From: Octopus sinensis | Taxonomy: Eukaryota | Reading direction: 5' to 3' | Assembly: GCF_006345805.1 (NCBI RefSeq) | Contig: NC_043004.1 | Span: 96,596,001 to 96,660,000 of the forward strand | DNA length: 64,000 nt | Shown here: positions 2,355 to 64,000 of the stretch, one piece after another | Layout of the letters: the number at the start of each line of letters is the position of its first letter | Position numbering within the stretch: position 1 is the first letter of the stretch | Made by a program: the position numbers and the translations under genes | Notes under the pieces: model-generated | Database searches by the model: none | The model's input: only the letters and a program-made list of their open reading frames with translations | Told to the model about the DNA's origin: nothing

Positions 2355-2456
2355 TGTATGTATGTATGTATGTATGTATGTATGTATGTATGTATGTACG
2401 TACGTATGTATGTATGTATGTATGTATGTATGTATGTATGTATGTATGCATGTATG
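2325..2456. repeat. (TATG)n microsatellite
   Basis: Direct reading. Confidence 0.97.
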
Positions 2457-2656
2457 TTAATGTATATAAGGTTTGCAGCCACAGATGTGACGCTGTCATT
2501 CAGAGGCTGACGTCTCAATTATTTGCCCTTGGTTTCAATAACACTCTGGGGCACACAGGGCATGTTTCTTCTTTTACAGCTCCGTCTAGTCAAAGATTCA
2601 TAGTTAATTTAAGAAACAGAAGTTGAATGATATCTGATGGGTGTGTGTCTATCTCG

Positions 2657-2661
<5 letters not shown>

Positions 2662-2698
<37 letters not shown>

Positions 2699-2712
2699 TT
2701 GTCTATCTATCC

Positions 2713-2793
<81 letters not shown>

Positions 2794-2820
2794 CCAATTG
2801 ATCTACCTGTCTGTCTGTCT
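2662..2820. repeat. (CT)n + (ATCT)n compound microsatellite
   Basis: Direct reading. Confidence 0.97.
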
Positions 2821-3279
2821 ATACACACAACACACACACATATAAATATTTGTATATATGTATATATCGATCTGTAGACTATTCTTAAATTACATACATC
2901 ATTGAAAGCTTGAGAAACTATGGTATTCATGTTGACAAAGCATCTCATGCAGCAGTGATGGCAGAATTTGCTAAATACATATTTCTACCATATGGAACTT
3001 CATCAGTAGCATACATCCACTGGCAATTGCATGCTAAGACAAAATCAGCTGCCACTGTTACAGCAAAAATAGTGAAAGTCACCAATATCATAATTACTTG
3101 GTAAACTCAATAAAAATTCGTTATGAATGTCAGACACAGTTTTTGTTGAAAATACTAATCTGTGTGTTATACTTGAAGCATATTTACTGCTGAAAGCCTG
3201 ATAAACTCTCTTATTTATCTTGACAAAGCATTTATCACTTATGGACACATACTGTTAAAAAACACAGAAATATATTTGA

Positions 3280-3460
3280 TTAGAACACAAAAATATTATC
3301 CAGTGGTAGCGCTAGCAGCATTGTTAAATATGTATTTCTGCTTCTTTGGGATCTATCAGTGGCAATATCCTATAGCAAGCTCCACTGGATCCAAGCATGC
3401 AAGCTGAATGTGTAGTGGCATGACGAACATTGAAGCTGAGGACAGTTTTATTGAATAAAC
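3280..3460 (+). pseudogene. Possible decayed hAT transposase C-terminal dimerisation-domain fragment
   Basis: KYYPVVALAALL then, after a frameshift, CISASLGSISGNIL*QAPLDP; resembles hATC YPxLxxxA...SAxxERxFSxxGxI...RxxL. Heavily degraded. Confidence 0.3.
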
Positions 3461-3595
3461 TGTTTCTTTAATATATCTACTTGAATATTTTCCCCAAAAC
3501 ATTGTTTTCTATCATATTTTTATCCATTTATTATCTTTGTTTTTCGTTACATCATATTTTTTTCTCAATTACCTGATGCACACACTATGAGCATC

Positions 3596-3659
<64 letters not shown>

Positions 3660-6385: not shown

Positions 6386-7739
6386 GGGAAGCATTATGAC
6401 CATATTTTGAGAAGAATTCTCTGGAGTTTGAATAATTCATCTATGGAAAATGGGTGTTTTGTACATCATCCTTAAAAAATCATTCTTCAGGGACCGTTTG
6501 AGTATGATGGGCTACTCAGCCTTAAGAAAATTCTAACTGAGCCTCACCTGCAAGGTCATGTGTTGTTTATCTTTATATGAGATCACTATGTCATGCACAT
6601 GTGGCCGTAATGCATGCACTATGTATATCCTTATCAGACATGTAGTCATGATGCATGTATTAAGCTCTGTATATTTGTACCCCAGTATCACTTTGATGGC
6701 ATATGTTGCTCTCCACTCAATAATTATAATTAATATTGGTTTTAATTTGGGCAGAAAGCAAGCAACTTTTAAGGGGAGAGGTACAGTTGTTCAGATTAAC
6801 ATTGGTACATTACTGGCATTGTTGATTTTAAGGAAATTTGAAATCAAACTAAAAAGAAAAAGCGATTTTTCTGACACTATAGTTCCTGGCAGCTCATTGA
6901 TTCTAATTGTTTTAATTAGGCATAGAGCAAGCTATTTTTGAGGGTAAGTGTTATTTGATTCAAATAAGGTGAAGGGCAATGTTTACCTTGGAAGGATTTG
7001 AACTCGGAATACAAAAAAGCAAAAAACAAAAAATAAACATGGCATTTCCTTTGACAATATAACAAAGAAAAATAGGTTAGATAATGATGATAATTATGAT
7101 AAAAGCAGGAAATAAACAAAATATAATTTCAAAAAATGGTAAATGGTAACAAAAGTCTACAAACATGATGGTTAATGTGTAAAAGCAACAGTAGCACAGA
7201 AAAGAAAGAACCGTCAAAAGATTTTAGTTGAAATATTCTGGAAAGAAGCCTGAATTGGTGAAAAACATTTTCCCTCTAAAGACTTGAAAGAAATTTGGCA
7301 AAAAAGATGAAATAAATATACAATATATTCTGAGATTATATTTAAATTTGTTTTCTTTATTTAAATGCTTTTTATACGATTTTAAAAATTTCGTCTGATT
7401 TCCACTGTTTCTCTTCTTTGTAAGTCTTTTTATGTTTATCTTTTTATGTGGTTGTTTTATATCTTAAATGTATATATGCATTTGTTACACATACACACAC
7501 ACAAACACAAAGAAAGAGAGAGCGAGAGAAACAGACAGAGGGAGAAATATTATAATATTTATATGTGCATAGAAATACACACATACACAGACATACACAT
7601 TCAAACACACACAATTGCAAACATACACGCATATATGAAGAAATGTATAAATATATTTATATATATATATATGTACATCATTTATACAAATTTCCTATTT
7701 ACATATTTACAATTTTAGACATGTAATACATTAGTATTA

Positions 7740-8520
7740 AACTACACACACACACAGAGATATGTATGTAGGTATACATAGACGCTCTACAAATATATAT
7801 ACATATATATATATATATATAAACAAAAATAATATATATATATATGTACATAGACAAATATATATACACACACACACACAAATATATCTATGAGTGTACA
7901 TACACACACATACACATAAATATATATATATATATATAAACAAAAATAATATAAATATATGTACATAGACAAACATACACACACACACACCACACACACA
8001 GATATGTATGTAGGTATACATATACCCTCTACAAATATATATACATATATATATATATATACGCACAAAAAAATATATGTATGAGTGTACATACACACAC
8101 ACATACACATAAATATATATATATATATAAACAAAAATAATATATATATATATGTACATAGACAAATATATATATATACACACACACACACAAATATATC
8201 TATGAGTGTACATACACACACATACACATATATATATATAAACAAAAATAATATATATATGTACATAGACAAATATATATATATACACACACACACACAA
8301 ATATATCTATGAGTGTACATACACACACATACACATATATATATATAAACAAAAATAATATATATATATATGTACATAGACAAATATATTAATATACACA
8401 CACACACAAATATATCTATGAGTGTACATACACACACATACAAATATATATATATATATATATATCAACAAAAATAATATATAAATATATGTACATAGAC
8501 AAACACACACACACACACAC
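7740..8520. repeat. Higher-order minisatellite, ~105-110 bp unit built from TA/CA tracts, about 7 copies
   Basis: Recurring anchors AAACAAAAATAAT, TGTACATAGACAAA, ATCTATGAGTGTACATAC. Confidence 0.9.
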
Positions 8521-22470: not shown

Positions 22471-22807
22471 ATCTATATCTATGCGGAATAGATGAAACAG
22501 GGACAACTGAAGAAATGGAATATTTCTTGTGTTGTATGTCGTGTACTCTGTTTTTTTCGTTGTTTGAAAAAAAGTTCGTTACTATGTTTTTGTTTTTATG
22601 TTTACGTTTCTCATTTTGTTCCACGTTTTTTTAATGTCCTGTACCCATATATGCATGTATATATACATATATATGTAGGTATGTACATATATGCATGTAT
22701 ACATGCATATATTTATATATTATTTATATTATATATATATATATATGTATATACATCATCATCGTTTAACATCCGTTCTCCATGCGTTAAACGATGATGT
22801 TGTATAT

Positions 22808-22853
<46 letters not shown>

Positions 22854-22870
22854 AATATTATATAAATATT

Positions 22871-22913
<43 letters not shown>

Positions 22914-34600: not shown

Positions 34601-35136
34601 CTTAAGTTAAGTATTCATTGGTTTTCACAAAAAGATTTTTACTATTTCAGTTAGTCAACATCTGTATAACTTGGGAGTTCGAAATTTATTTTTCATGTAT
34701 TGTCCTAGAATATATTTCAGATACCCACAGCAAATTCAAAACTCACACACTAAGTTAATAATGTTATTGGTTTTCATTTCTACCATGATTCATAGAACAC
34801 CAGCTGCTGGCAACATATAGCCAGAGTTAATAAATACCACCTGAGGATAATCTTCAGACACACTGTGAAATCTTTCTAAAGAAACAGCTCATTCAAACAG
34901 TGCTGCTTGTTTATAGTTCCCCACTTAACTATAAATCCAAGATGTTTGATGTCAGAAAGACTGGGAGATTATTACTTTGCTTGGAAACGGATGATATTTG
35001 GTATAAAGAAAAGCATCTAGTCACAGAAAATATTGTTGCATCATAGTCATGTCCAATACCAAGCAAGCCTAGAAAAGTAGGTATTTAAAATGATGATGGT
35101 GAAAATGATGGTATGTTTATAACTACCTACCTACTT

Positions 35137-35361
35137 ATGTATGTATGTATGTATGTATGTATGTATGTATGTATGTATGTATGTATGTATGTATGTATTT
35201 ATGTATGTATGTGTGTGTGTATGTATGTATGTATGTATGTATGTATGTGTGTGTATGTATGTATGTATGTGTGTGTGTATGTATGTATGTATGTATGTAT
35301 GTATGTGTGTATGTGTGTATGTATGTATGTATGTATGTATGTATGCATGTATGTATCTATG

Positions 35362-35395
<34 letters not shown>
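35137..35395. repeat. (TATG)n/(TG)n/(ATCT)n compound microsatellite
   Basis: Direct reading; accounts for the spurious first ~84 aa of ORF 35145-36779. Confidence 0.97.
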
Positions 35396-35396
<1 letters not shown>

Positions 35397-38300
35397 AGAG
35401 ACCGGATTAGCACACTAGTAAAGAGGGCTTTGACGGGAGCCATCATCAACAACAAATGGTGGTTTGCCCTCAAGAGAGCAGTAAAAGCAGAAGCGATTAG
35501 GTACAGCAAAGCACTAGCCATAGATAGAAATAGAGTTGAGGGTGAGCTAGTTAAGAAGCTAGAAGAGGCAATTAGAAGCGGCATCGCATCCGACGTTTTG
35601 GCAGCGAGGTTGGCCCTCGACCAACACTTCAACGCCAAACACGAAGGATGTGCTGTCAGAGCTAGGATGCGTGCTCTAAGGAACGAAGTTGTTGGAGCCG
35701 CGAGAGAGGCCCGGGTGGCAGAGGCGCAACAGGGCAACAAAGCCACCATTCGGTCCCTGGTAGACGAACAGGGGCGCGAATTGCTCGAGCCAAGTAAAAT
35801 GTGTGAGGCCTTTCAGCAGCATTTTGCCCGACTGTTCGGGACGAGTGGAGGGCAAGAACGTAGGGTGGACTTCAGTGCCTACCTACATAGCCTACCACGA
35901 CTCTCGACAAGAAAGGCAGGGTGCTGCGAAGGTGCCATCACGGCGGCGGAAGTGCAGGAGGCGATGGCAGAATGCTCGAGGGACAAATCACCGGGTTTGG
36001 ATGGTCTACCCTACGAGCTTTACAATTGTATGCCAGACTTGTTTGGAGATCTCTTGGCGGCGGTGTACTGCAACTGGCAGCAAAACGGGAGCATTCCTGG
36101 TTTTGTGAGCCGAGGAGCCGTAACACTGCTGAAGAAAGATCTAAACAAGGGAAATGTAATAGATAACTTTAGGCCCATCACTCTGCTCAATGCAGACTTG
36201 AAAATTTTGGCCAAGGTGCTAGCCAAGAGGTTGGCGCTTGTCATCAAGAAACTGGTCGACAAGGTGCAAACATGCGCCGTGCCAGGCCGGACCATCCATG
36301 ACAACCTCCACCTGATGCGCTACATCATAGACAGGGTAGTTAACGAACCTGGCATGGGTGGGGCGCTGATCAATTTGGATCAATCGAAAGCTTTCGATAG
36401 GGTAGACCATCGATACTCGGAGGCGGTCCTCAGAGCGGCAGGCTTCGGTCCCGTCTTCCGCGGCTGGATAGCCGCTTTGTACAGAGGCATCCGTTCGGTA
36501 ATTCGCGTGAATGGACATCTATCGAGACCCTTCGACATCGCACGTTCGGTCCGTCAGGGATGCCCCCTCTCGTTGCTTCTATACGTATTGACTCTCGAGC
36601 CATTATTGCGGAAGCTGGCAACTTTGAGGGGCATCCCGCGAGAACTGGGATGCGGGACGAGCGTGTCTGCATACGCGGACGACGTCACCGTCATAGTGTC
36701 TAGCCACGAGCACATCGAGCAGGTTGGCGAGACACTGAAAAACTACGAAGCGGTGACAGGAGCGAAAATCAACCGGTAAAAGTCAGTGGGCTTGCGACTA
36801 GGCACCTGGAGAAGCAAGCCCATGCCGTCCACCAGCGCCTCCGTCGTGGGACGCTGGACTGACGGCCCGGTTGAGTTGCTCGGGGTCTGGTTTGGTCCGG
36901 ACCTCCAAGTGGAGAAGAACTGGAACGAGATAACGAGTAGGGTGGTCACTCTCGCCCGGCAATGGGCCGAGAGGAAACTGTCCCTAAAAGGTCGGGCGGA
37001 GGTGGCGAACACGTACATCGCGTCCGTCATCTACTACCGCCTGACCGTCGTACCTTGTCCTGACCCTACCATCACCAAACTACAACGCATTCTCTTTCGC
37101 TTCTTGTGGTAAGGATGCGTCCCGATGGTCAGGCGATCCATTTGCTGTCAACACCCGTTAAAAGGAGGGCTGGGCATGCCGTGGTTGATGATGCGCAGAC
37201 ACGCGCTGAGACTGCGACATCTCTGGCTCTATGTAGACGACGGTGAACAGGTGTGGTCGCCGTTTGTGAGGCACGCTTTCCCGCAGCTCGTCTCCATGAC
37301 CGAACTGCAGTCGTGGATCAAAAAGAGGCCGAGGAAGGGCGATTGGCACCGCGAGTGTCGCGTTGCTCTCAAGCAACTCTGCCGTCCCGGGTCGACCTTG
37401 AGTGACTTCAACACAACCAAAGCATTCTATAGGGGATTAGTGGAGGGGAGGTACGACGACGAGCTCGGGGCGAACCTGGACGTCGACGAGGAGTACCTGA
37501 CCCGCCTGTTCAGGACGACTTTCGGGCCAGGGTCCATGGACAACTTCCAGAGATCCCTGGCCTGGCAGTGCTACCGAGAAGCGCTACCCGTTCGGGATAA
37601 GCTCTACAGACACGGCTCGAGAAACACGGGGCCGACCTGCCCGAGATGCGGTCAGAGCGACGAAACCGTTCTGCACGCACTCGTGCAGTGTCCAACAATT
37701 TCCGACCTGTGGGCTTATGTCGAACAACTGCTGTCACGTGTGGGACGAGTCGGTTTATCAGCTGAGTCTATCGTCAATATTGTCACGCCTCCTTCCTTCA
37801 AACGGGAAGGAAGAGCTATTTTCATCATCCTTGTGGTTATGGCGAAAGAATGTATCTGGTGGACGCGTCTGAAAGGATTGGAGACAAACACTTTCCTCTC
37901 TGGTCAATCTCTCATCAACTTCTTCAAGTACCACTTGAAAAGGAAAGTGAGAGTAGAGAGGCAAGTTTTATCTAGCGAATGTTTTAAAAAAAGATGGGTG
38001 AATGTAGCAAGGATGGCACGTATGAATGACGAAGCCACCTTGAGCATAATCCTATGAACCCAGAAATTGAAAACAGAGGGTTACCCACTTGCAAACAAAT
38101 GTGGTAACATATAATAATATTGACCAAGGTTACCGTGGTCTTTTTCGTAGGCTTTTCTTCCCACGGATAAACCTTACTTGCTTTCCCCTTTACACCATAT
38201 ATCATAACACTGTGATACACGATCCCTATTGATCGTTTTTTTTCCTCTTCCCCCTTTTTTCCCCTTTTTTCTTCTTTTTTCATTACTCTTTCCTTTTGTT

Positions 38301-39755: not shown

Positions 39756-41020
39756 TCAGGTGGTCCCATAAGTTCTGTCTGATTTTTACCTTTTTTTAAA
39801 ATTGAATGATATTTAATAGTATTTTAGAATGTCTAATGGAATTAAAAATTATTTTTATGCATTTGCATACATTTAAACTAATTAAATATTATTTTACAGA
39901 ATAATAGAATTAAAATTTCTTTGATTAAAACCCTTTCTAACATGGAAGTATCCAAAGTGCGTTTAAGGCACATAATGCTTTATGAGTACAAAAAGGAAAC
40001 TCTGCAGCCGAAACGACTCAAAACATACACTCAGTTTATGGGAAAGAATACTTGAAAGAAAGAACTTGCAGAAGATGGTTTGCAAAATTCAGAAGTGGAG
40101 ATTTCAGCCTTGAGGATGAAGATCGTACAGGATGTCCATTTGAGTTTCATGATAAGCTCCTTGAGGAATTATTTGAAGAAAATCCTGCATTGTCAGTTGA
40201 AGAATTGGCAATAAAGCTTAGTACATATCATACAACTGTTCATCGTCATATTCAACAACTTGGAAAATGGGTACCTCATGAATTGTCCAAAAGGAACTGC
40301 AAATCCCGAGTTGACATCTGTTCATCTCTCCATTCTCGCAAACTCAATTCACCCTTTTTGGATAGACTCGTGACTGGTGATGATAAATGGATCTTCTGTC
40401 AAAATGTTAGATGTTGTAAACAGTGGCTTGGTAAAAGGGAAAAAGCTCAACCACAACCGAGAAGGGAAGTTCATGAGAAAAAGGTTCTTCACTCTATCTG
40501 GTGGGATTGCAAAGGAGTAATTCACTTTGAATTGTTACCACCTAATGCAACAATCAATGCTCAAGTCTACTGTAAGCAATTAGAGCGTTTGAAGCAAGCT
40601 TTGAAGAAAAAAAGACCCACTTTAGTGAATTGAAAAGGAGTGAATGTTTCATCAGGACAATGCGCGACCCCACACTGCAAAGATCACATCAAAAAAGATC
40701 GAAGAACTTGGTTGGGAAAAAAATTCTTCATCCACCTTATTCTCCCAACCTTGCTCCTTCAGAGTACCACTTGTTTTTAGAAACATTTGGGGGGCATAAC
40801 TTTTGCAAGCCAGGAGGATTTTGAAACTGACATTTTGGAGTTATTTGCTTTGAAACCAAAAGAGTTTTACATTGATGGGATTAAAAAGCTTGTAAATAGA
40901 TGGAAGGAAATCATAGATAATCAGGGAAAGTACATTGATGATTAAATTTCAATTAAATATAACATTTGATCACTTGTTTTCTTTATTCAAAATTCGGACA
41001 GAACTTATGGGATGACCTGA
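39756..41020 (+). mobile_element. Full-length mariner DNA transposon (~1.27 kb), inactive
   Basis: TIRs TA|TCAGGTGGTCCCATAAGTTCTGTCTGA and TCGGACAGAACTTATGGGATGACCTGA|TA. Confidence 0.95.
39942..40945 (+). pseudogene. Mariner DD34D-type transposase, frameshifts/stops
   Basis: MEVSKVRLRHIMLYEYKK, RRWFAKFRSGDFSLED, WVPHEL, VTGDDKW, HQDNARPH, HPPYSPNLAPSEYHLF. Confidence 0.95.
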
Positions 41021-41329: not shown

Positions 41330-43737
41330 CTTCCTCCCCTTCCACCCCTTCACATCTCAAATCCCCCACTCTGGAATATTCAAAATTCCTTCGTCCCCTT
41401 CCTCCACTTCAACCCTCAAATGCCCCTCTCTGGAATGATTAACATTCCTTCCTCCCCTTCCTCCCCTTCCTCCCCTTAACCTCTCAAATCCCCCTCTCTG
41501 GAATGTTTAACATTCCAGAGATGGGGATTTGAGAGGAGAAAGAAGGGGAAGGGGAGGAAGGAATGTAAAACATTCCAGTGAGGGGAATTTGAGAGGTGAA
41601 GGGGAGGAATGGGAGGAAGGAATCTCAACCATTCAAGAGAGGGGGATTTGAGAAGTGAAGGGGAGGAAGGGGAGGAAGGAATGTTAAACATTCAAGAGAG
41701 GGGGGTTTGAAGGGTGAAGGGGAGGGAGGGGAGGAAAGAATGTTAAACATTCCAGAGAAAGAGATTTGAGGGGTGAAGGAGAGGAAGAGGAGGAAGGAAT
41801 GTTAAACATTCCAGAGAGGGGGAAGGGGAGGAAGGGGAGGGAGGAACGTCAAACATTCCAGAAAGGGGGATTTGAGAGGTGAAGGAGAGGAAGTGGAGGA
41901 AGGAATATCAAAGATTCCAGAGAGGGAGATTTGATGGGTGAAGGGGAAGAAGGGGAGGAAGGAATGTTAAACATTCCAGAGAGGGGGAAGGGTAGTAAAG
42001 AGAGGAAGGAATGTTGAGCATTCCAGAGAGGGGGATTTGAGAGGTGAAGGGGAGGAAGAGGAGGAAGGAATCTTAAACATTCCAGAGCAGGGGATTTGAG
42101 AGGTGAAGTGGAGGAATGGGGGGAAGGAATGTTAAACAATCCAGAGAGGGGAATTTGAGAAGTGAAGGGGAGGAAGAAATGTTAAACATTCCAGAGAGGG
42201 GGATTTGAGAGGTGAAGTGGAGGAATGGGGGGAAGGAATGTTAAACAATTCCGAGAGGGGAATTTGAGAAGTGAAGGGGAGGAAGAGGGGGAAGGAATGT
42301 TAAACATTCCAGAGAGGGGGATTTGAGAGGTGAAGGGGAGGAAGGAATGTTAAACATTCCAAAGAGGGAGATTTGAAGGGTGAAGGAGAGGAAGAGGAGG
42401 GAGGAATGTTAAACATTCACCCCTCAAATCCCCCTCTCAGGCATGTTCAACATTTCTTCCTCCCCTTCTACACCTTCAGCCCTTAAATCCCCCTCTCTGG
42501 AATGTTTAACATTCCTTCCTCCCCTTAACCTCTCAAATCTCCCTCTCTGGAATGTTTAACATTCCTTCCTCCCCTTCCTCCCCTTCCTCCCCTTCCTCCC
42601 CTTCCTCCCCTTCCTCCCCTTCCTCCCCTTCACCTCTCAAATCCCCCTCTTTGGAATGTTTAACATTCATTCCTCCCCTTCCTCCCCTTCACCACTCAAA
42701 TCCCCCTCTCTGGAATGTTTAACATTCCTTCCTCCCCTTCCACCCCTTTTTTCCTTTCACCTCTCAAATCCCCCTCTCTGGAATGTTTAATATTCCTTCC
42801 TCCCCTTCACCCCACAAATGCCCCTCGCTGGAATGTTTAACATTCCTTCCACCTCTTCCTCCCCTTCACCTCTCAAATCCCCCTCTCTGGAATGTTTAAC
42901 ATTCCTTCCTCCCCTTCCTCCCCTTCACCTCTCAAATCCCCCTCTTTGGTATGTTTAACATTCCTTCCGCCCCTTCCTCCGCTTCATCATTCAAAACCCC
43001 TCTCTGGAATGTTTAACATTCCTTCCTCCCCTTCTCCCCTTCACCTCTCAAATAACCCTCTTTGGAATGTTTAACATCCTTCCTCCCCTTCCTCCCCTTC
43101 ACCTCTCAAATCCCACTCTCTGGAATGTTTAACATTCCTTCCTCCCCTTCCTCCCCATCATCTCTCAAATCCCCCTCTCTGGAATGTTCAACATTCCTTC
43201 TTCCCCTTCCTCCCCTTCACATCTCAAATCCCCCTCTCTGTAATGTTTAACATTCCTTCCTCCCCTTCCTCCCTGTCACCTCTCAAATACCCCTCTTTGG
43301 AATGTTTCACATTCCTTCCTCCCCTTCTTCCCCTTCACCTCTCAAATCCCCCTCTCTGGAATGTTTAACATTCCTTCCTCCCCTTCCTCCCCTTCACCTC
43401 TCAAGTCCCCCTCTCTGGAATGTTCAACATTCCTTCCTCCCCTTCTTCCCCTTCACCTCTCAAATCCCCCTCTCTGGAATGTTTAACATTCCTTCCTCCC
43501 CTTCCTCCCCTTCATCTCTCAAATCCCCCTCTCTGGAATGTTTAACATTACTCCTACCCCTTCCTCCCCTTTTCCTCTCAAATCCCCTCACTGGAATGTT
43601 TAACAATCCTTCCTCCCCTTCCTCCCCTTCACCTCTCAATTCCCCCTCTCTGGAATGCTTAACATTCCTTCCTGCCCTTCCTCTCCATCACCTCTCAAAT
43701 CCCCCTCTCTGGATTGTTTAACATTCTTTCCTCCCCT
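41330..43737. repeat. 59 bp satellite, left block, with inverted segment ~41510-42410
   Basis: Monomer GGAATGTTTAACATTCCTTCCTCCCCTTCCTCCCCTTCACCTCTCAAATCCCCCTCTCT; roughly 40 units. Confidence 0.97.
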
Positions 43738-44078
43738 AAATAAATAAATAAATAAATAGTATCTATAAATAGAATCTATAAATAGAATCTATAAATAGAA
43801 TTTATAAATAGAATCTATAAATAGAATCTATAAATAGAATCTATAAATAGTATCTATAAATAGATTCTATAAATAGAATCTATAAATAGAATCTATAAAT
43901 AAATAAATAAATAAATAAATGAACAAATAGAATCTACAAATAGAATCTATAAATAGAATTGATAAATAGAATCTATAAATAAATAAATAAATAAATATAT
44001 AAATAGAATCTATAAAGAGGATCTATAAATAGAATCTTTAAATAGAATCTATAAATAGAATCTTATAAATAGAATCTA

Positions 44079-44109
<31 letters not shown>

Positions 44110-44301
44110 ATAGTTTCTATAAATAGAATCTATACATAGAATCTATAAATAGAATCTATAAATAGAATCTATAAATAGAATCTATTAATAGAATCTATAA
44201 ATAGTATCTATAAATAGAATCTATAAATAGAATCTCTAAATAGAATCTATAAATAGTATCTATAAATAGAATCTATAAATAGAATCTATAAATAGAATCT
44301 A

Positions 44302-44332
<31 letters not shown>

Positions 44333-44984
44333 ATAGAATCTTTAAATATAATCTATAAATAGAATCTATAAATAGAATCTATAAGTAGAATCTATAAAAA
44401 GAATCTATAAATAAATAAATAAATAAATAGTATCTATAAATAGATTCTATTTATAGATTCTATTTATAGATTCTATTTATGATTCTATTTATAGATTCTA
44501 TTTATAGATTCTATTTATAGATTCTATTTATAGATATTATTTATTTATTTATTTATTATTTATTTATTAGAATCTATAAATAGAACCTATAAATAGAATC
44601 TTTAAATAGAATCTATAAATAGAATCTGTAAATAGAATCTATAAATAGAATCTATAGATAGAATCTATAAATAGTATCTATAAATAGAATCTATAAACAG
44701 AATCTATAAATACAATCTATAAATTAATATATAAATAAATATATAAATAAATTGAATCTATAATTAGAATCTATAAATAGAATCTATAAATAGAAACTAT
44801 AAATAGAATCTATAAACAGAATCTATAAATAAACAAATAAATAAATAAATAGTATCTATAAATAGATTCTATTTATAGATTCTATTTATAGATTCTATTT
44901 ATAGATACTATTTATTTATTTATAGATTCTATTTATAGATTCTATTTATAGATTCTATTTACAGATTCTATTTATAGATTCTAT

Positions 44985-45019
<35 letters not shown>

Positions 45020-45891
45020 TAGATTCTATAAATTTGAACCAGTTTGAACCGGTTTGAACTGGTTTGACCCGGTTTGAACCGGTTTGAACTGGTTTGATCC
45101 AGTTTGAACCGGTTTGAACCAGTTTGAAGATAAAGGGGTATTTGAAGGTAAAGGGGAGGAAATAAATAAATAAATAAGTAAATAAATAAATAGAATCTAT
45201 AAATAGAATCTATAAAAAGAATCTATAAATAAATAAATAAATAAATAAATAGTATCTATAAATAGATTCTATTTATAGATTCTATTTATAGATTCTATTT
45301 ATTGATTCTATTTATAGATTCTATTTATAGATTCTATTTATAGATACTATTTATTTATTTTTTATTTATTTATTTATTTATTTATAGATTCTATAAATTT
45401 GAACCAGTTTGAACCGGTTTGAACTGGTTTGACCCGGTTTGAACCGGTTTGAACTGGTTTGATCCAGTTTGAACCGGTTTGAACCAGTTTGAAGATAAAG
45501 GGGTATTTGAAGGTAAAGGGGAGGAAATAAATAAATAAATAAGTAAATAAATAAATAGAATCTATAAATAGAATCTATAAAAAGAATCTATAAATAAATA
45601 AATAAATAAATAAATAGTATCTATAAATAGATTCTATTTATAGATTCTATTTATAGATTCTATTTATTGATTCTATTTATAATTCTATTTATAGATTCTA
45701 TTTATAGATACTATTTATTTATTTATTTATTTATTTATTTATTAGAATCTATAAATAGAATCTGTAAATAGAATCTATAAATAGAATCTATGAATAGAAT
45801 CTATAAATAGTATCTATAAATAGAATCTATCAATAGAATCTATAAATAGAATCTTTTAATAGTATTTATAGATTCTATTTATAGATACTAT

Positions 45892-45922
<31 letters not shown>

Positions 45923-46088
45923 TAGATTCTATTTATAGCTTCTATTTATAGCTTCTATTTATAGCTTCTATTTATAGCCTTTATTTATAGCTTCTATTTA
46001 TAGCTTCTATTTATAGCTACTATTTATAGATTCTATTTATAGACTCTATTTATAGATTCTATTTATAGATTCTATTCATAGATTCTAT

Positions 46089-46119
<31 letters not shown>

Positions 46120-47096
46120 TAGATTCTATAAATTTGAACCAGTTTGAACCGGTTTGAACTGGCTTGACCCGGTTTGAACTGATTTGATCCGGTTTGAACC
46201 GGTTTGAACCAGTTTGAAGGTAAAGGGGGATTTGAAGGTAAAGGGGAGGAATGGGAACAAGGATTATTTAACATTCCAGAGAGGGGTATTTGAAGGTAAA
46301 GTGGAGGAAATAAATAAATAAATAAAGAAATAAATAGAATCTACGAATAGAAGCTATAAATAGAAGCAATAAATAGAAGCTATAAATAGAAGCTATAAAT
46401 AGAATCTATAAATAGAATCTATAAATAAATAAATAAATAAATAAATAGAATCTATAAATAGAAGCTATATATAGAAGCTGTAACAAGAAGCTATAAATAG
46501 AATCTATAAATAGAAGCTATAAATAGAAGCTATGAATAGAATCTATAAATAGAATCTATAAATAGAATCTATAAATAGAATCTATAAATAGAATCTATAA
46601 ATAGAATCTATAAATAAATAAATAAATAAAGAGAAGCTATAAGTAGAAGCTATAAATAGAAGCTATAAAAAGAAGCTATAAATAGAAGCTATAAATAGAA
46701 GCTATAAATAAATAAATAAATAAATAGAATCTATAAATAGAATCTATAAATATAATCTATAAATAGAATCTATAAATAGAATCTATAAAAAAATAAATAA
46801 ATAAATAAATAAATAAATAAAGAGAATCTATAAATAGAATCTATAAATAGAATCTATAAAGTAAAAAATAAATAAATAAATAAATAGTATCTATAAATAG
46901 AATCTATGAATAGAATCTATAAATAGAATCTATAAATAGAATCTATAAGTAGAATCTATTAATAGAATCTATAAATAGAATCTATAAATAGAATCTATAA
47001 ATAGAATCTATAAATAAATAAATAAATAAATAAATAGAATCTATAAATAGAATCTATAAATAGAATCTATAAATAGAATCTTATAAATAGAATCTA

Positions 47097-47127
<31 letters not shown>

Positions 47128-47720
47128 ATAGTATCTATAAATAGAATCTATGAATAGAATCTATAAATAGAATCTATAAATAGAATCTATAAATAGCATC
47201 TATAAATAGATTCTATAAATACAATCTATAAATAGAATCTATAAAAAAATAAATAATAAATAAATAGTATCTATAAATAGAATCTATGAATAGAATCTAT
47301 AAATAGAATCTATAAATAGAATCTATAAGTAGAATCTATTAATAGAATCTATAAATAGAATCTATAAATAGAATCTATAAATAGAATCTATAAATAAATA
47401 AATAAATAAATAAATAGAATCTATAAATAGAATCTATAAATAGAATCTATAAATAGAATCTTATAAATAGAATCTATAATAAATAAATAAATAAATAAAT
47501 AAATAAATAGTATCTATAAATAGAATCTATGAATAGAATCTATAAATAGAATCTATAAATAGAATCTATAAATAGCATCTATAAATAGATTCTATAAATA
47601 CAATCTATAAATAGAATCTATAAAAAAATAAATAAATAAATAAATAAATAAATAAATGAACAAATAGAATCTACAAATAGAATCTATAAAAAGAATCTAT
47701 AACTAAATAAATAAATAAAT
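43738..47720. repeat. 13 bp satellite (ATAAATAGAATCT)n interleaved with (AAAT)n, mixed orientation, with three GGTTTGAACC 10-mer islands
   Basis: Direct reading; 10-mer islands start at 45031, 45396, 46131. Confidence 0.97.
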
Positions 47721-48586
47721 AAATAATTTGCATATATATATATACATAATTTGCATATATATATATACATAATTTGCATATATATATACATAATTTGCAT
47801 ATATATACACAAAATTTGCATATAAATATACATAATTTGCATATATATATACATAATTTGCATATATATATACATAAATTGCATATATATATATACATAA
47901 TTTGCATATATATACATAATTTGCATATATATATATACATAATTTGCATTTATATATACATAATTTGCATATATATATACATAATTTGCATATATCTATA
48001 CATAATTTTCATATATATATACATAATTTGCATACATATATACATAATTTGCATATATATATACATAATTTGCATATATACATAATTTGCATACATATAT
48101 ACATAATTTGCATATATATATACATAATTTGCATATATATATATACATAATTTGCCTATATATATACATAATTTGCATATATCTATACATATTTTCATAT
48201 ATATATACATAATTTGCATACATATATACATAATTTGCATATATATATATACATAATTTGCATATATACATAATTTGCATACATATATACATAATTTGCA
48301 TATATATATACATAATTTGCATATATATATACATAATTTGCCTATATATATACATAATTTGCATATATCTATACATAATTTTCATATATATATACATAAT
48401 TTGCATATATATATACTTAATTTGCATATATATATACATAATTTGCATATATATATACATAATTTGCATATATATATATAATAATTTGCATATATATATA
48501 TACATAATTTGGATATATATATATATACATAATTTGCATATATATATACATAATTTGCATATATATATACATAATTTGCATATATA
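47721..48586. repeat. ~22 bp minisatellite CATAATTTGCAT(AT)n
   Basis: Roughly 38 units, most containing ATTTGCAT. Confidence 0.97.
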
Positions 48587-49915
48587 TTCAACATTCCTTC
48601 CTCCCCTTCTTCCCCATCACCTCTCAAATCCCCCTCTCTGGAATGTTTAACATTCCTTCCTCCCCTTCCTCCCCTTCTCCTCTCAAATCCCCCTCTTTGG
48701 AATGTTTAACATTCCTTCCTCCCCTTCCTCCCCTTCACCTCTCAAATCCCCCTTTCTGGAATGTTTAACATTCCTTCCTCCCCTTCCTCCCATTCACCTC
48801 TCAAATCTCCCTGTCTGGAATGTTCAACATTCCTTCCTCCCTTCTTCCCCATCACCTCTCAAATCTCCCTCTTTGGAATGTTTAATATTCCTTCCTCACC
48901 TTCCTCCCCTTCACCTCTCAAATCCCTCTCTCTGGAATGTTTAACATTCCTTCCTCCCCTTCCTCACCTTCACCTCTCAAATCCCCCTCTCTGGTATGTT
49001 TAACATTCCTTCCTCCCCTTCTTCCCCATCACCTCTCAAATCTCCCTCTTTGGAATGTTTAACATTCCTTCCTCCCCTTCCTCCCCTTCACCTCTCAAAT
49101 ACCCCTCTCTGGAATGTTTAACATTCCTTCCTCCCCTTCCTCCCCTTCACCTCTCAAATCCCCCTCGTTGGAATGTTTAACATTCCTTCCTCCCCTTCCT
49201 CCCCTTCACCTCTCAAATCCCCCTTGTTGGAATGTTTAACATTCCTTCCTTCCCTTCCTCCCCTTCACCTCTCAAATCCCCCTCTCTGGAATGTTTAACA
49301 TTCCTTCCTCCCCTTCCTCCCCTTCACCTCTCAAATCCCCCTCTTTGGAATGTTTAACATTTCTTCCTCCCCTTCCTCCCCTTCACCTCTCAAATCCCCC
49401 TCTCTGGAATGTTTTAATTCCTTCCTCCCCTTCCTCCCCTTCACCTCTCAAATCCCCCTCTCTGGAATGTTTAACATTCCTTCCTCCCCTTCCTCCCCTT
49501 CCTCCCCTTCACCTCTCAAATCCCCCTCTTTGGAATGTTTAACATTCGTTCCTCCCCTTCCTCCCCTTCACCCCTCATATCCCCCTTTCTTGGACGTTCA
49601 ACATTCCTTCCTCCGCTTCCTCCCCTTCCCTTCTCATATCCCCCTCTCTGACATGTTCAACATTCCTTCCTCCCCTTCACCCCTCAAATCCCTGTCTCTG
49701 GAACGTTCAACATTCCTTCCTCCCCTTCCCTTCTCATATCCCCCTCTCTGACATGTTCAACATTCTTTCCTCCCCTTCACCCCTCAAATCCCCCTCTCTG
49801 GAACGTTCAACATTCCTTCCTCCCTTTCTCTTCTCATATCCCCCTCTTTGGAATGTTCAACATTCCATCCTCTGCTTCCTCCTCTTCCTTTCTCAAATCC
49901 CCCTCTCTGTAATGT
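48587..49915. repeat. 59 bp satellite, right block, degenerating at the distal edge
   Basis: Same monomer as 41330-43737; roughly 23 units. Confidence 0.97.
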
Positions 49916-62257: not shown

Positions 62258-62332
<75 letters not shown>

Positions 62333-62350
62333 TATTTATTTTATAGAAGG

Positions 62351-62401
62351 AGCTTCTACAGGACTAGAACTGTTTCATTCAAATGAAATCATCAGGAAGC
62401 T
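62351..62401 (-). ncRNA. Type I hammerhead ribozyme motif
   Basis: Exact reverse complement of 63849-63899. Confidence 0.8.
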
Positions 62402-62594
62402 TGGTGTCAAGAATAGTTTTAGCATTTATACATTTAGGCAGATTTAAAAGGGTGGTGGTGGGGGACTTTTTTGGGGTAGGCAGGGCACAAACTGTCTTTC
62501 TTAGGGGAGTGGTCAAAAGAATCAGTGATAAAGTAGATAAATGAATAAATAGAATAATAGAATAGAGTTTTAGGTAAATAAGAAGACTATCGGT

Positions 62595-62638
<44 letters not shown>

Positions 62639-62827
62639 TACACATATATATACACATATATATACATATATACATACATATACACATACTCATACATACA
62701 CACACACATATATACATACACACATATATACATATTTATACAAATACACATACACATACTTGCCAACATGCAAGCACACGCACACATATATCTACACATA
62801 TATATATGAAAGAATATACACACCCAT

Positions 62828-62860
<33 letters not shown>

Positions 62861-63383
62861 CATATATACACATACATATATATACATATATATATATGTA
62901 TACATGCACATATATACACACACATTTCCTCCCTTATTTTATTTTTATTTTGACTTCTTCATAGTCATAAAGGGTGTAATATATGACCTACCTACCCACC
63001 GACACACATTTATTGGTGCTGGAGTCGACCTTCCCAGGGTGCTAGCCAGCCTAAATGAAATCCATTTATTTCCCCTCTTTATTGCCACTCACACACACTC
63101 ACATGAGTGTGCATGTGAGTGTTTGGGAAGAGAGATAGAAAGGAAGGGAGAGGGGCAATAAATGGATTTCATTTAGGCTGGCTAGCACCCTGGGGAGGGT
63201 CGACTCCAGCGCCAATAAATGTGTGTCAGCGGGTAGGTAGGTCATATATTACACCCTTTATGACTATGAAGAGGTCAAAATAAAAATAAAATAAGGGAGG
63301 AAATGTGTGTGTATATATGTGCATGTATACATATATATATATGTATATATATGTATGTGTATATATGTGTGTATGTATATATG

Positions 63384-63414
<31 letters not shown>

Positions 63415-63596
63415 ATGGGTGTGTATATTCTTTCATATATATATGTGTAGATATATGTGTGCGTGTGCTTGCATGTTGGCAAGTATGTGTATGTGTATTT
63501 GTATAAATATGTATATATGTGTATATGTATATATGTGTATGTGTATGTATGAGTATGTGTATATGTATGTATATATGTATATATGTGTGTATATAT

Positions 63597-63657
<61 letters not shown>

Positions 63658-63848
63658 CGATAGTCTTCTTATTTACCTAAAACTCTATTCTATTATTCTA
63701 TTTATTCATTTATCTACTTTATCACTGATTCTTTTGACCACTCCCCTAAGAAAGACAGTTTGTGCCCTGCCTACCCCATAAAAGTCCTCCACCACCACCC
63801 CTTTAAATCTGCCTAAATGTATAAATGCCAAAACTATTCTTGACACCA

Positions 63849-63899
63849 AGCTTCCTGATGATTTCATTTGAATGAAACAGTTCTAGTCCTGTAGAAGCT
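63849..63899 (+). ncRNA. Type I hammerhead ribozyme motif
   Basis: Stem I AGCTTC/GAAGCT; core CTGATGA; stem II T-TTC-attt-GAA-T; GAA; stem III ACAG-ttctagtc-CTGT; cleavage triplet GTA (predicted cut after 63893). Confidence 0.8.
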
Positions 63900-64000
63900 C
63901 CTTCTATAAAATAAATTAATTTACTCTGCTATGTATTGAGTACCTTATTTACTGTGGTTAACCCCGACTCAACCCGGGATACATATATATAAATATATAT

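What the first reader, a model, noticed from the sequence alone, without database searches (positions are those of the whole stretch)
62335..63915. 1.6 kb fold-back with a complete hammerhead ribozyme at the outer end of each arm
Seen: ~750 bp near-identical inverted arms around a ~70 bp spacer. Each arm holds an identical full type I hammerhead (AGCTTC-CTGATGA-TTTCATTTGAAT-GAAACAG-ttctagtc-CTGTA-GAAGCT), so either strand gives a long hairpin RNA with a self-cleaving site near its 3' end. Known: Penelope-like elements carry hammerheads in pseudo-LTRs and often form inverted ends, usually minimal motifs with a very short palindromic stem III. Here stem III is a 4-bp stem with an 8-nt loop and might work as a monomer, although stem II is weak with a U-U closing pair. 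Inference: a non-coding, retrozyme-like or solo-pLTR unit that could yield processed dsRNA (ADAR or small-RNA substrate). No ORF is attached in this window.
Basis: partly seen in the sequence, partly recalled or inferred. Interest (0 to 1): 0.75.

Follow-up and report, generated by a model that had tools for sequence, protein, structure and literature searches.

The report
Head-to-head Penelope retrotransposon ends
The fold-back is real but ordinary: two truncated tail ends of an abundant Penelope-like jumping gene joined head to head in a TA repeat, likely made when both cut DNA strands each primed a copy of the element's RNA; sister copies indicate that this RNA likely starts, capped, at the first base of the predicted self-cutting ribozyme.

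Summary
Observation confirmed: 745-nt inverted arms, identical type I hammerhead motifs, ~70-nt centre. The arms are not a stand-alone RNA. They are the last ~0.8 kb of a protein-coding Penelope-like retrotransposon with Hydra-clade motifs; 4,873 exact copies of the ribozyme's 3' half lie in the genome. The right arm carries a ~70-nt tail that the left arm lacks; 50 of 52 sampled head-to-head pairs show this one-long/one-short pattern. Inverted copy, tail and hammerhead are published Penelope features. A read-through hairpin RNA is predicted to mask the ribozyme completely. New at family level: short pairs stop at the first base of stem I, 29 nt behind a TATA box, with a non-native G on 122 of 138 arm ends, the likely mark of a capped RNA start. 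Templates were therefore mostly uncut sense RNA, and each arm's own promoter likely points outward. One locus looks like rolling-circle copying from the predicted cut site. Cleavage, transcription and editing are untested. The scan noted head-to-head stubs and the cap reading before, on other DNA.

The parts
62280..62333 (.). Left flank, (TA)n target microsatellite; no target-site duplication can be told
   Evidence: Sequence
62334..63078 (-). Left arm: inverted, 5'-truncated 3' end (pLTR) of the element, with the short end 23 nt past the predicted cut site and no tail
   Evidence: homologous to the 3' UTR end of natural full-length copy L176
62351..62401 (-). Type I hammerhead motif of the left arm; predicted cut between 62357 and 62356; likely RNA start at 62401, pointing outward
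   Evidence: start inferred
62424..62430 (-). TATA box of the left arm
63079..63123 (.). Inversion junction: short pieces of element sequence and an 11-bp hairpin with a 6-nt loop (63095-63122)
   Evidence: bridged by a 133-nt contig of run X16 over 63033-63165
63124..63986 (+). Right arm: 5'-truncated 3' end (pLTR) of the element with the long end; 87% identical to L176:7268-8138
63820..63826 (+). TATA box (TATAAAT), conserved across subfamilies, 29 nt before stem I
63849..63899 (+). Type I hammerhead motif; predicted cut 63893/63894; first base 63849 is the likely capped RNA start
63892..63908 (+). Part of a competing hairpin (63890-63908) predicted to bury the cut site once the downstream bases are made
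   Evidence: prediction only
63917..63986 (+). Tail: the stretch between the short end (+15 to +28) and the long end (+95); in full-length copies it runs on into the 5' UTR and ORF

Best explanation
The fold-back is one insertion of two 5'-truncated, head-to-head 3' ends of a protein-coding Penelope-like retrotransposon with Hydra-clade motifs, set in a TA repeat, and it likely arose when both nicked target strands primed reverse transcription at two fixed sites of the element's RNA and the two partial copies were then joined. Shown: the parent element, the one-tailed asymmetry, the (TA)n flanks, the copy number. Inferred steps: (1) a pLTR TATA promoter starts a capped RNA at the first base of hammerhead stem I; (2) the RT-endonuclease protein nicks both strands of (TA)n; (3) one strand primes at +95 and the other at about +23 from the cut site, on uncut sense RNA; (4) copies primed near the 5' end run off at the cap and give ~200-bp palindromes, while copies made on a template that has the 3' UTR upstream of the ribozyme run further, here ~0.75 kb; (5) the two cDNA ends are joined through short homologies. 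At this locus the arms' own promoters would fire outward. A hairpin RNA needs outside read-through and would mask the ribozyme. The locus is most likely an inert by-product, at most an editing substrate or a source of short outward transcripts.
For: Parent: minus strand of L033 reads RT thumb, GIY-YIG-type domain, 3' UTR, then the arm. L176 reads hammerhead (1783), tail, ORF, 3' UTR, arm, hammerhead (7991). Copy number: 4,873 exact ribozyme-half matches and 3,037 exact tail matches. Sample of 123 copies in 71 units around the first 100 listed matches: 52 head-to-head pairs, 50 long+short, 1 long+intermediate, 1 short+short (p=3e-13 against random pairing); ends at +15 to +28 (61 copies) or +92 to +95 (60), 2 others. 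Either arm can be the longer one: the tailed arm is the short one in L033 and L032 and the long one in L034/L036, which needs two priming events. RNA start: of 99 tail-anchored copies 40 begin 38-46 nt upstream of the cut, 7 at 47-88, none within 4 nt of the cut. Palindromic joins at the AGCT of 5' stem I: 452 loci, against 9 at the same four letters just behind the cut. In non-overlapping joins the base before AGCT is G on 122 of 138 arm ends, whereas the native base is T 62, A 7, C 2 of 71. Print: inverted copy and one-sided tail (PMC8557442, PMC3846280); two RT start sites flanking the tail, both strands nicked and extended, uncut RNA as substrate (PMC11167929); opposite-strand hammerhead pairs (PMC4209133).
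Against: No transcript end, cleavage or editing was observed; the runs offered were contigs and none was on record as RNA. The central 11-bp hairpin and the near-equal arm lengths at this locus also fit a single cDNA folding back. 21 of the 57 listed G-join loci have inserts that could be copied from the ribozyme core, so their G may not come from the cap (58 of 74 arm ends remain G without them; hand count; 22 rows were not listed). About 20 of the 32 junctions that reach stem I overlap at the AGCT palindrome and say nothing on their own (the extent was capped at 45 in that script). Pfam did not recognise the protein and no tree was built, so the clade rests on motifs. No compensatory base change was seen in the ribozyme stems. 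The template of long arms such as these (3' end of a linear RNA, a jump, or a circle) is not resolved.
Confidence: 0.82

Rival explanations
1. One cDNA (or an antisense template, as proposed for rotifer Penelopes) folds back at a palindrome and copies itself, making the inverted arm without a second priming event.
For: 11-bp hairpin at the centre and arms of similar length; the arms resemble each other more in the inner part (6 mismatches in 154 columns) than any fetched copy (best 89%); 13 of 30 inspected cut-site joins look like stem I snap-backs; junction palindromes were read this way in PMC3846280 (passages).
Against: Tailed arm shorter than the untailed arm in L033 and L032 but longer in L034/L036; short ends cluster at +15 to +28 whatever the arm length; both arms carry the extra G in 54 of 69 loci (derived), which points to two run-offs on capped sense RNA.
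Confidence: 0.1
2. The fold-back is a non-autonomous, retrozyme-like unit or a functional dsRNA gene that is processed by its own ribozymes.
For: Two intact ribozyme motifs, no ORF in the arms, very stable predicted hairpin of -1277 kcal/mol with perfect duplexes up to 158 bp; ribozyme variation confined to tolerated positions.
Against: Centres and arm lengths differ between insertions; no second copy of this junction among fetched loci; repeats are inverted, not tandem; the ribozyme is masked in the hairpin; parent element has an ORF.
Confidence: 0.05
3. The inversion is an assembly or long-read fold-back artefact.
For: Microsatellite-rich region; three of four runs laid show no contig across the centre.
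Against: Arms differ at 29 positions and in repeat lengths and ends; a 133-nt contig of X16 bridges the centre, although X16 may be the assembly's own sample; the same architecture recurs genome-wide and short palindromic joins appear as loose ends in runs X6 and X15.
Confidence: 0.02

Closest known systems
Hydra clade of C-terminal-endonuclease Penelope-like elements (Craig et al. 2021, PMC8557442; seen: passages, section 11, supplement part 2 with the Hydra sheet and File S2, supplement search passages)
   Same: RW[K/R], DKT, CxCx5C linker, CxxC and CxH without CCHH, (TA)n target, 3' hammerhead with U.U at the base of stem II; Penelope-13_HM is listed with an inverted 5'-truncated copy and a hammerhead on both strands.
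   Different: A different family from Hydra-1_Obim (different ribozyme, by eye). Unit about 4.6-6.2 kb with a microsatellite-rich 3' UTR, against 'generally <3 kb'. Loop III 8 nt with a central palindrome, against 1-3 nt. Tail about 70 nt, against 30-40.
Insertion units of endonuclease-positive Penelope elements: inverted pLTR, one-sided tail, junction palindrome (Arkhipova et al. 2013, PMC3846280; seen: passages)
   Same: Head-to-head inversion, tail on one end, palindrome at the junction, putative TATA box in the pLTR.
   Different: That paper favours self-priming on an antisense template; the extra G on both arms here points to two copies of capped sense RNA.
Poseidon element of Anolis, in vitro (Frangieh et al. 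2024, PMC11167929; seen: parts 1-2 of 4, no supplements)
   Same: Two internal RT start sites flanking the tail, both strands nicked and extended, AT-rich target, uncut RNA as main substrate, ribozyme inactive without protein.
   Different: There the ribozyme and start sites lie inside the ORF; here they lie in a non-coding leader of about 185 nt. Head-to-head products and the RNA start were not examined in the parts read.
Minimal hammerheads of metazoan Penelope elements (Cervera and de la Pena 2014, PMC4209133; seen: parts 1-2 of 4)
   Same: Hammerheads in pLTRs; pairs 100-700 bp apart on opposite strands reported in Schistosoma; circular template proposed.
   Different: Here stem III is complete, stem II is short, and G10.1-C11.1 is replaced by U.U.
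Non-LTR retrozymes (PMC7229834, passages; bioRxiv 10.64898/2026.07.22.740005, part 1 of 5)
   Same: Type I hammerhead, no ORF in the unit, link to Penelope elements.
   Different: Retrozymes are direct tandem repeats of a fixed monomer; this is an inverted pair of variable length cut from a coding element.

Membership tests
Hydra-clade Penelope-like element (parent) | Single ORF with RT and C-terminal GIY-YIG endonuclease | tested here: met
   ORF with YRDD RT and a C-terminal VY..YIG..R..E..N domain in natural copies. Recognised by motif; Pfam gave no relevant hit.
Hydra-clade Penelope-like element (parent) | RWK motif and DKG changed to DKT | tested here: met
   IRWRSFFF and SDKTKN in L176, L069, L082; K is R here.
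Hydra-clade Penelope-like element (parent) | CxCx5C linker; CCHH absent; CxxC and CxH around E and N | tested here: met
   CNCPDKTTC, CDLC..E..N..CMH, compared with PMC8557442 section 11.
Hydra-clade Penelope-like element (parent) | Canonical hammerhead in the 3' repeat and insertion into (TA)n | tested here: met
Hydra-clade Penelope-like element (parent) | Placement within the clade in an RT tree | not tested
   Reference proteins were seen only as paper text; no tree built.
Penelope insertion unit | Inverted 5'-truncated copy joined at the 5' end, tail on one end only | tested here: met
   Window; 50 of 52 sampled pairs.
Penelope insertion unit | Target-site duplication | tested here: inconclusive
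   Both flanks are TA repeats.
Type I hammerhead ribozyme | CUGANGA, GAAA, NUH and three helices | tested here: met
   Sequence and folding; stem II is weak; no Rfam match.
Type I hammerhead ribozyme | Core and stems more conserved than flanks | tested here: met
   3 of 51 positions vary (N7, two loop II bases) against 8 of 20 just upstream, p=0.001, in 42 of 47 copies. Copies are related, the anchor pattern touched the core, and the tail is equally conserved.
Type I hammerhead ribozyme | Compensatory changes in stems | tested here: inconclusive
   Stems are invariant across subfamilies.
Type I hammerhead ribozyme | Self-cleavage | not testable with these tools
   Predicted share of the three-helix fold 0.5% or less; one locus joined at the cut site.
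Non-LTR retrozyme | Direct tandem repeats of a fixed monomer, each with a hammerhead | tested here: not met
   Inverted pair, variable length.
MITE or other inverted-repeat DNA transposon | Symmetric termini and a fixed internal sequence among copies | tested here: not met
   Asymmetric ends; junctions vary among 54 short pairs.

The most novel reading that the evidence does not exclude
In this family the hammerhead is the first 51 bases of a capped transcript and acts as a switch between two templates. Uncut capped RNA, copied from two start sites by a protein pair, runs off at the cap and litters the genome with mini-palindromes. RNA cut at both ribozymes loses its cap, closes into a circle and is copied round, which regenerates the promoter-bearing pLTR and yields long arms such as these. 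Locus L230 would be a fossil of such a circle: a 2,091-nt unit whose join lies within 2 nt of the cut site, present in both arms and passed twice. It fits that only 2 of 18 ORF-bearing copies stop at the cap position, against 40 of 82 tail-ended copies.
Probability: 0.27. Interest if true: 0.75.

Novelty: new member of a known kind. Interest (0 to 1): 0.42.

Why it matters
The locus itself is ordinary. The family is useful because thousands of young junctions record where transcription and reverse transcription start. They argue for two primings on capped sense RNA, against the published antisense self-priming reading of head-to-head Penelope ends, and they name exact bases to test. How pLTRs are regenerated and what the hammerhead does are stated as open in PMC2377424 and PMC8557442. 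The family also supplies many near-perfect palindromes that could be editing substrates if transcribed; a high dsRNA load is reported for octopus in PMC5625713 (passages). That the genome is an octopus is my recollection from its repeats and was not tested.

Tried and rejected
Rfam scans: no hammerhead family hit. Pfam and PDB sequence searches of the parent protein: nothing relevant. Protein Atlas gave no answer. RNA evidence: no RNA holder listed; contigs of X5 and X6 are thin upstream of 63849 relative to X15 and X1, but run type is a guess and contigs cannot show starts, so this is not used. No A>G excess in contig differences, which cannot test editing. Cut-site 5' ends as a common class: rejected; none of 99 tail-anchored copies. 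Genome-wide patterns gave 34 matches at the cut, 27 at -2 and 17 at -6, and those inspected were mostly small indels or inverted joins explained by stem I homology (30 of 34 and 27 of 27 inspected, the -6 set not inspected). Splice acceptor at stem I, as in D. virilis: considered because a conserved AG opens stem I, but the stop includes the AG and carries an extra G. AGCT microhomology alone: rejected by the 452 against 9 control, though the second site offers only ~20 nt of cDNA. A TATA box at the same distance in published Hydra consensus sequences: looked at six by eye; TA-rich stretches occur in some, no clear rule. Host gene: no host exon recognised by eye among ORFs of 90 codons or more in the window, 10 kb before and 20 kb after; short exons would be missed. 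One search returned nothing through a script error, corrected. Literature searches for a TATA/start/hammerhead link, twin priming in Penelope elements (one unrelated review listed) and an untemplated cap G found no description; the library lacks most subscription papers, including the 2017 paper on dimeric Penelope hammerheads (recalled, not read). Supplements of PMC11167929, PMC3846280 and the bioRxiv preprint were not seen and could bear on the claim that the cap mark is not in print.

Full report
Observation. The inverted repeat is as described. The arms align over 62327-63923 with 767 identities, 29 mismatches and 39 gap columns, centre included. Outside microsatellites they differ at 10 of 411 columns. 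The 51-nt hammerhead motif is identical on both arms, at 63849-63899 (+) and 62351-62401 (-). A descriptor finds these 2 in the window and none in 200 random sequences of like composition. Rfam does not match it. The ends are asymmetric: the left arm stops 23 nt past the predicted cut and meets (TA)n, while the right arm continues about 70 nt further. The centre contains an 11-bp hairpin and short pieces of element sequence. A contig of run X16 bridges it with 4 other letters; three other runs do not, and X16 may be the assembly's own sample.

What the arms belong to. A search of the window's genome (2.72 Gb) gave 1,776 candidates for 63660-63925, of which 40 were scored. An exact 32-mer of the ribozyme occurs 4,873 times and one of the tail 3,037 times. 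In L033 the arm follows an RT-thumb and endonuclease coding stretch and a microsatellite-rich 3' UTR. L176 is a natural near-complete unit: ribozyme at 1783, tail, ORF, 3' UTR, arm-homologous stretch 7268-8138, ribozyme at 7991. The protein has RWR, DKT, YRDD, CxCx5C, CxxC and CxH and lacks CCHH. These are the features given for the Hydra clade in PMC8557442 section 11, which also notes (TA)n targets and hammerheads. Pfam does not recognise the protein and I built no tree. The supplement lists another family, Hydra-1_Obim, and shows U.U at the base of stem II as the common form, with loop III of 1-3 nt. The 8-nt loop III here is the one structural oddity. Its centre is palindromic, and two stem III strands are predicted to pair at -12.8 kcal/mol, so a dimer remains possible.

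Architecture in the family. I fetched the DNA around the first 100 of the 4,873 matches (first 61 Mb of contig C1). It held 123 copies in 71 units: 52 head-to-head pairs and 19 singles, at least 6 of which have an inverted partial partner that lacks the anchor. Ends are bimodal: 61 at +15 to +28, 60 at +92 to +95, 2 others. Of 52 pairs, 50 join a long and a short end (p=3e-13). Cut-to-cut distance is 130 nt or less in 34 pairs, 131-1000 in 6 and over 1000 in 12; the window's pair (1,538 nt) is in the last class. Either arm may be the longer. An inverted 5'-truncated copy and a one-sided tail are described as typical in PMC8557442 and PMC3846280. PMC11167929 shows in vitro that the tail lies between two RT start sites and that both strands are nicked and extended. 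PMC4209133 reports opposite-strand hammerhead pairs. The layout is therefore known.

Where the RNA starts (inferred). Among 99 copies anchored on the tail (of 100 listed), 40 begin 38-46 nt upstream of the cut, 7 at 47-88, and none within 4 nt of the cut. Position -45 is the first base of stem I, 29 nt behind a TATAAAT box that is conserved while the spacer varies. Genome-wide, palindromes joined at the AGCT of 5' stem I number 452, against 9 at the same letters behind the cut. Where both arms end at -45 without overlap, the preceding base is G on 122 of 138 arm ends; the native base is T, A or C in 71 of 71. Removing 21 listed loci whose inserts could be copied from the core leaves 58 of 74 (hand count; 22 rows unlisted). 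An extra G is what RT leaves on reaching an m7G cap (own knowledge). I read this as a capped start at 63849 (about 0.8). The D. virilis promoter is internal and TATA-less (PMC2377424, passages); a putative TATA box was noted in rotifer pLTRs.

Consequences for this locus. Each arm's promoter would point away from the centre, so the ribozyme would be at the 5' end of outward transcripts. A hairpin RNA needs read-through from elsewhere; I recognised no host exon nearby, by a weak test. In such an RNA all 51 ribozyme bases are predicted to pair with the other arm. Even alone, the three-helix fold has a predicted share of 0.5% or less, because one hairpin takes GAAA and another buries the cut site; the model ignores tertiary contacts and protein, and the Anolis ribozyme needs protein. 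The motif looks maintained: 3 of 51 positions vary, all at tolerated places, against 8 of 20 upstream, and contigs of four runs show 2 of 34 variable places inside it. There are no compensatory changes and the tail is as conserved, so this does not prove catalysis.

Role of cleavage. Most templates were uncut. One locus, L230, differs: a 2,091-nt unit from the cut site to mid-endonuclease, joined within 2 nt of the cut, appears in both arms and is passed twice with no ribozyme. This fits a circle, or a deletion plus a template jump; it is a single event with a 2-nt ambiguity. Of 27 copies that run into the ORF, 18 reach -38 and 2 stop there, against 40 of 82 tail-ended copies (p=0.003; these were top-scoring hits, not a random sample). 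Long copies thus seem to use a template without the cap wall. The circle model of PMC4209133 would explain both, but is not shown.

Earlier notes of the scan. After forming and noting these readings, I found that the scan had recorded head-to-head Penelope stubs in this genome and others, and the cap reading in two other genomes. They are unreviewed and not support. Two of them led me to PMC3846280.

Verdict. A real, ordinary insertion of a new family of a known clade. Interest lies in the family's junction record, which makes the start site, the two-priming mechanism and the circle model directly testable.

Noticed in passing
L230 (G000:C2:87786500-87795500, minus strand): Three copies of one junction that joins mid-endonuclease sequence to the ribozyme cut site; 2,091-nt unit in partial tandem plus an inverted arm.
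   Followed up: partly
L032:2770-3972 (+) and L034:8195-7212 (-): Two further Hydra-type families with long Asn-rich stretches between thumb and endonuclease, like the N-rich inserts described in PMC3846280.
   Followed up: partly
window about 2960-3010 (-), and 1467-728 (-): Another hammerhead-like motif upstream of reading frames that resemble a different Penelope-type RT end and GIY-YIG domain (resemblance recalled).
   Followed up: no
L002, L003, L012, L116, L117, L146, L191: Seven unrelated hammerhead-like motifs with palindromic stem III beside copies of this family.
   Followed up: no
window 29680-29339 (-): Frame resembling a GIY-YIG domain of another Penelope-type element (recalled).
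   Followed up: no
window 35109-38054 (+), 39986-40630 (+): GC-rich LINE-like RT frames and a mariner-like transposase fragment (labels recalled).
   Followed up: no
window about 43700-49500: AT-rich satellite of short units that switches orientation near 45260, followed by a TC-rich tandem repeat.
   Followed up: no
window 7786-8453 and 22589-22903 (-): 69-74% matches to the family's microsatellite-rich 3' UTR; old fragments or chance matches of simple repeats.
   Followed up: no
L041, oriented 2400-3611: RT frame of a different Penelope-type element (DKG motif) inserted just behind this family's endonuclease.
   Followed up: no
runs X6 (organism B), X16 (C), X19 (D): The family is also held by runs with other organism labels.
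   Followed up: no
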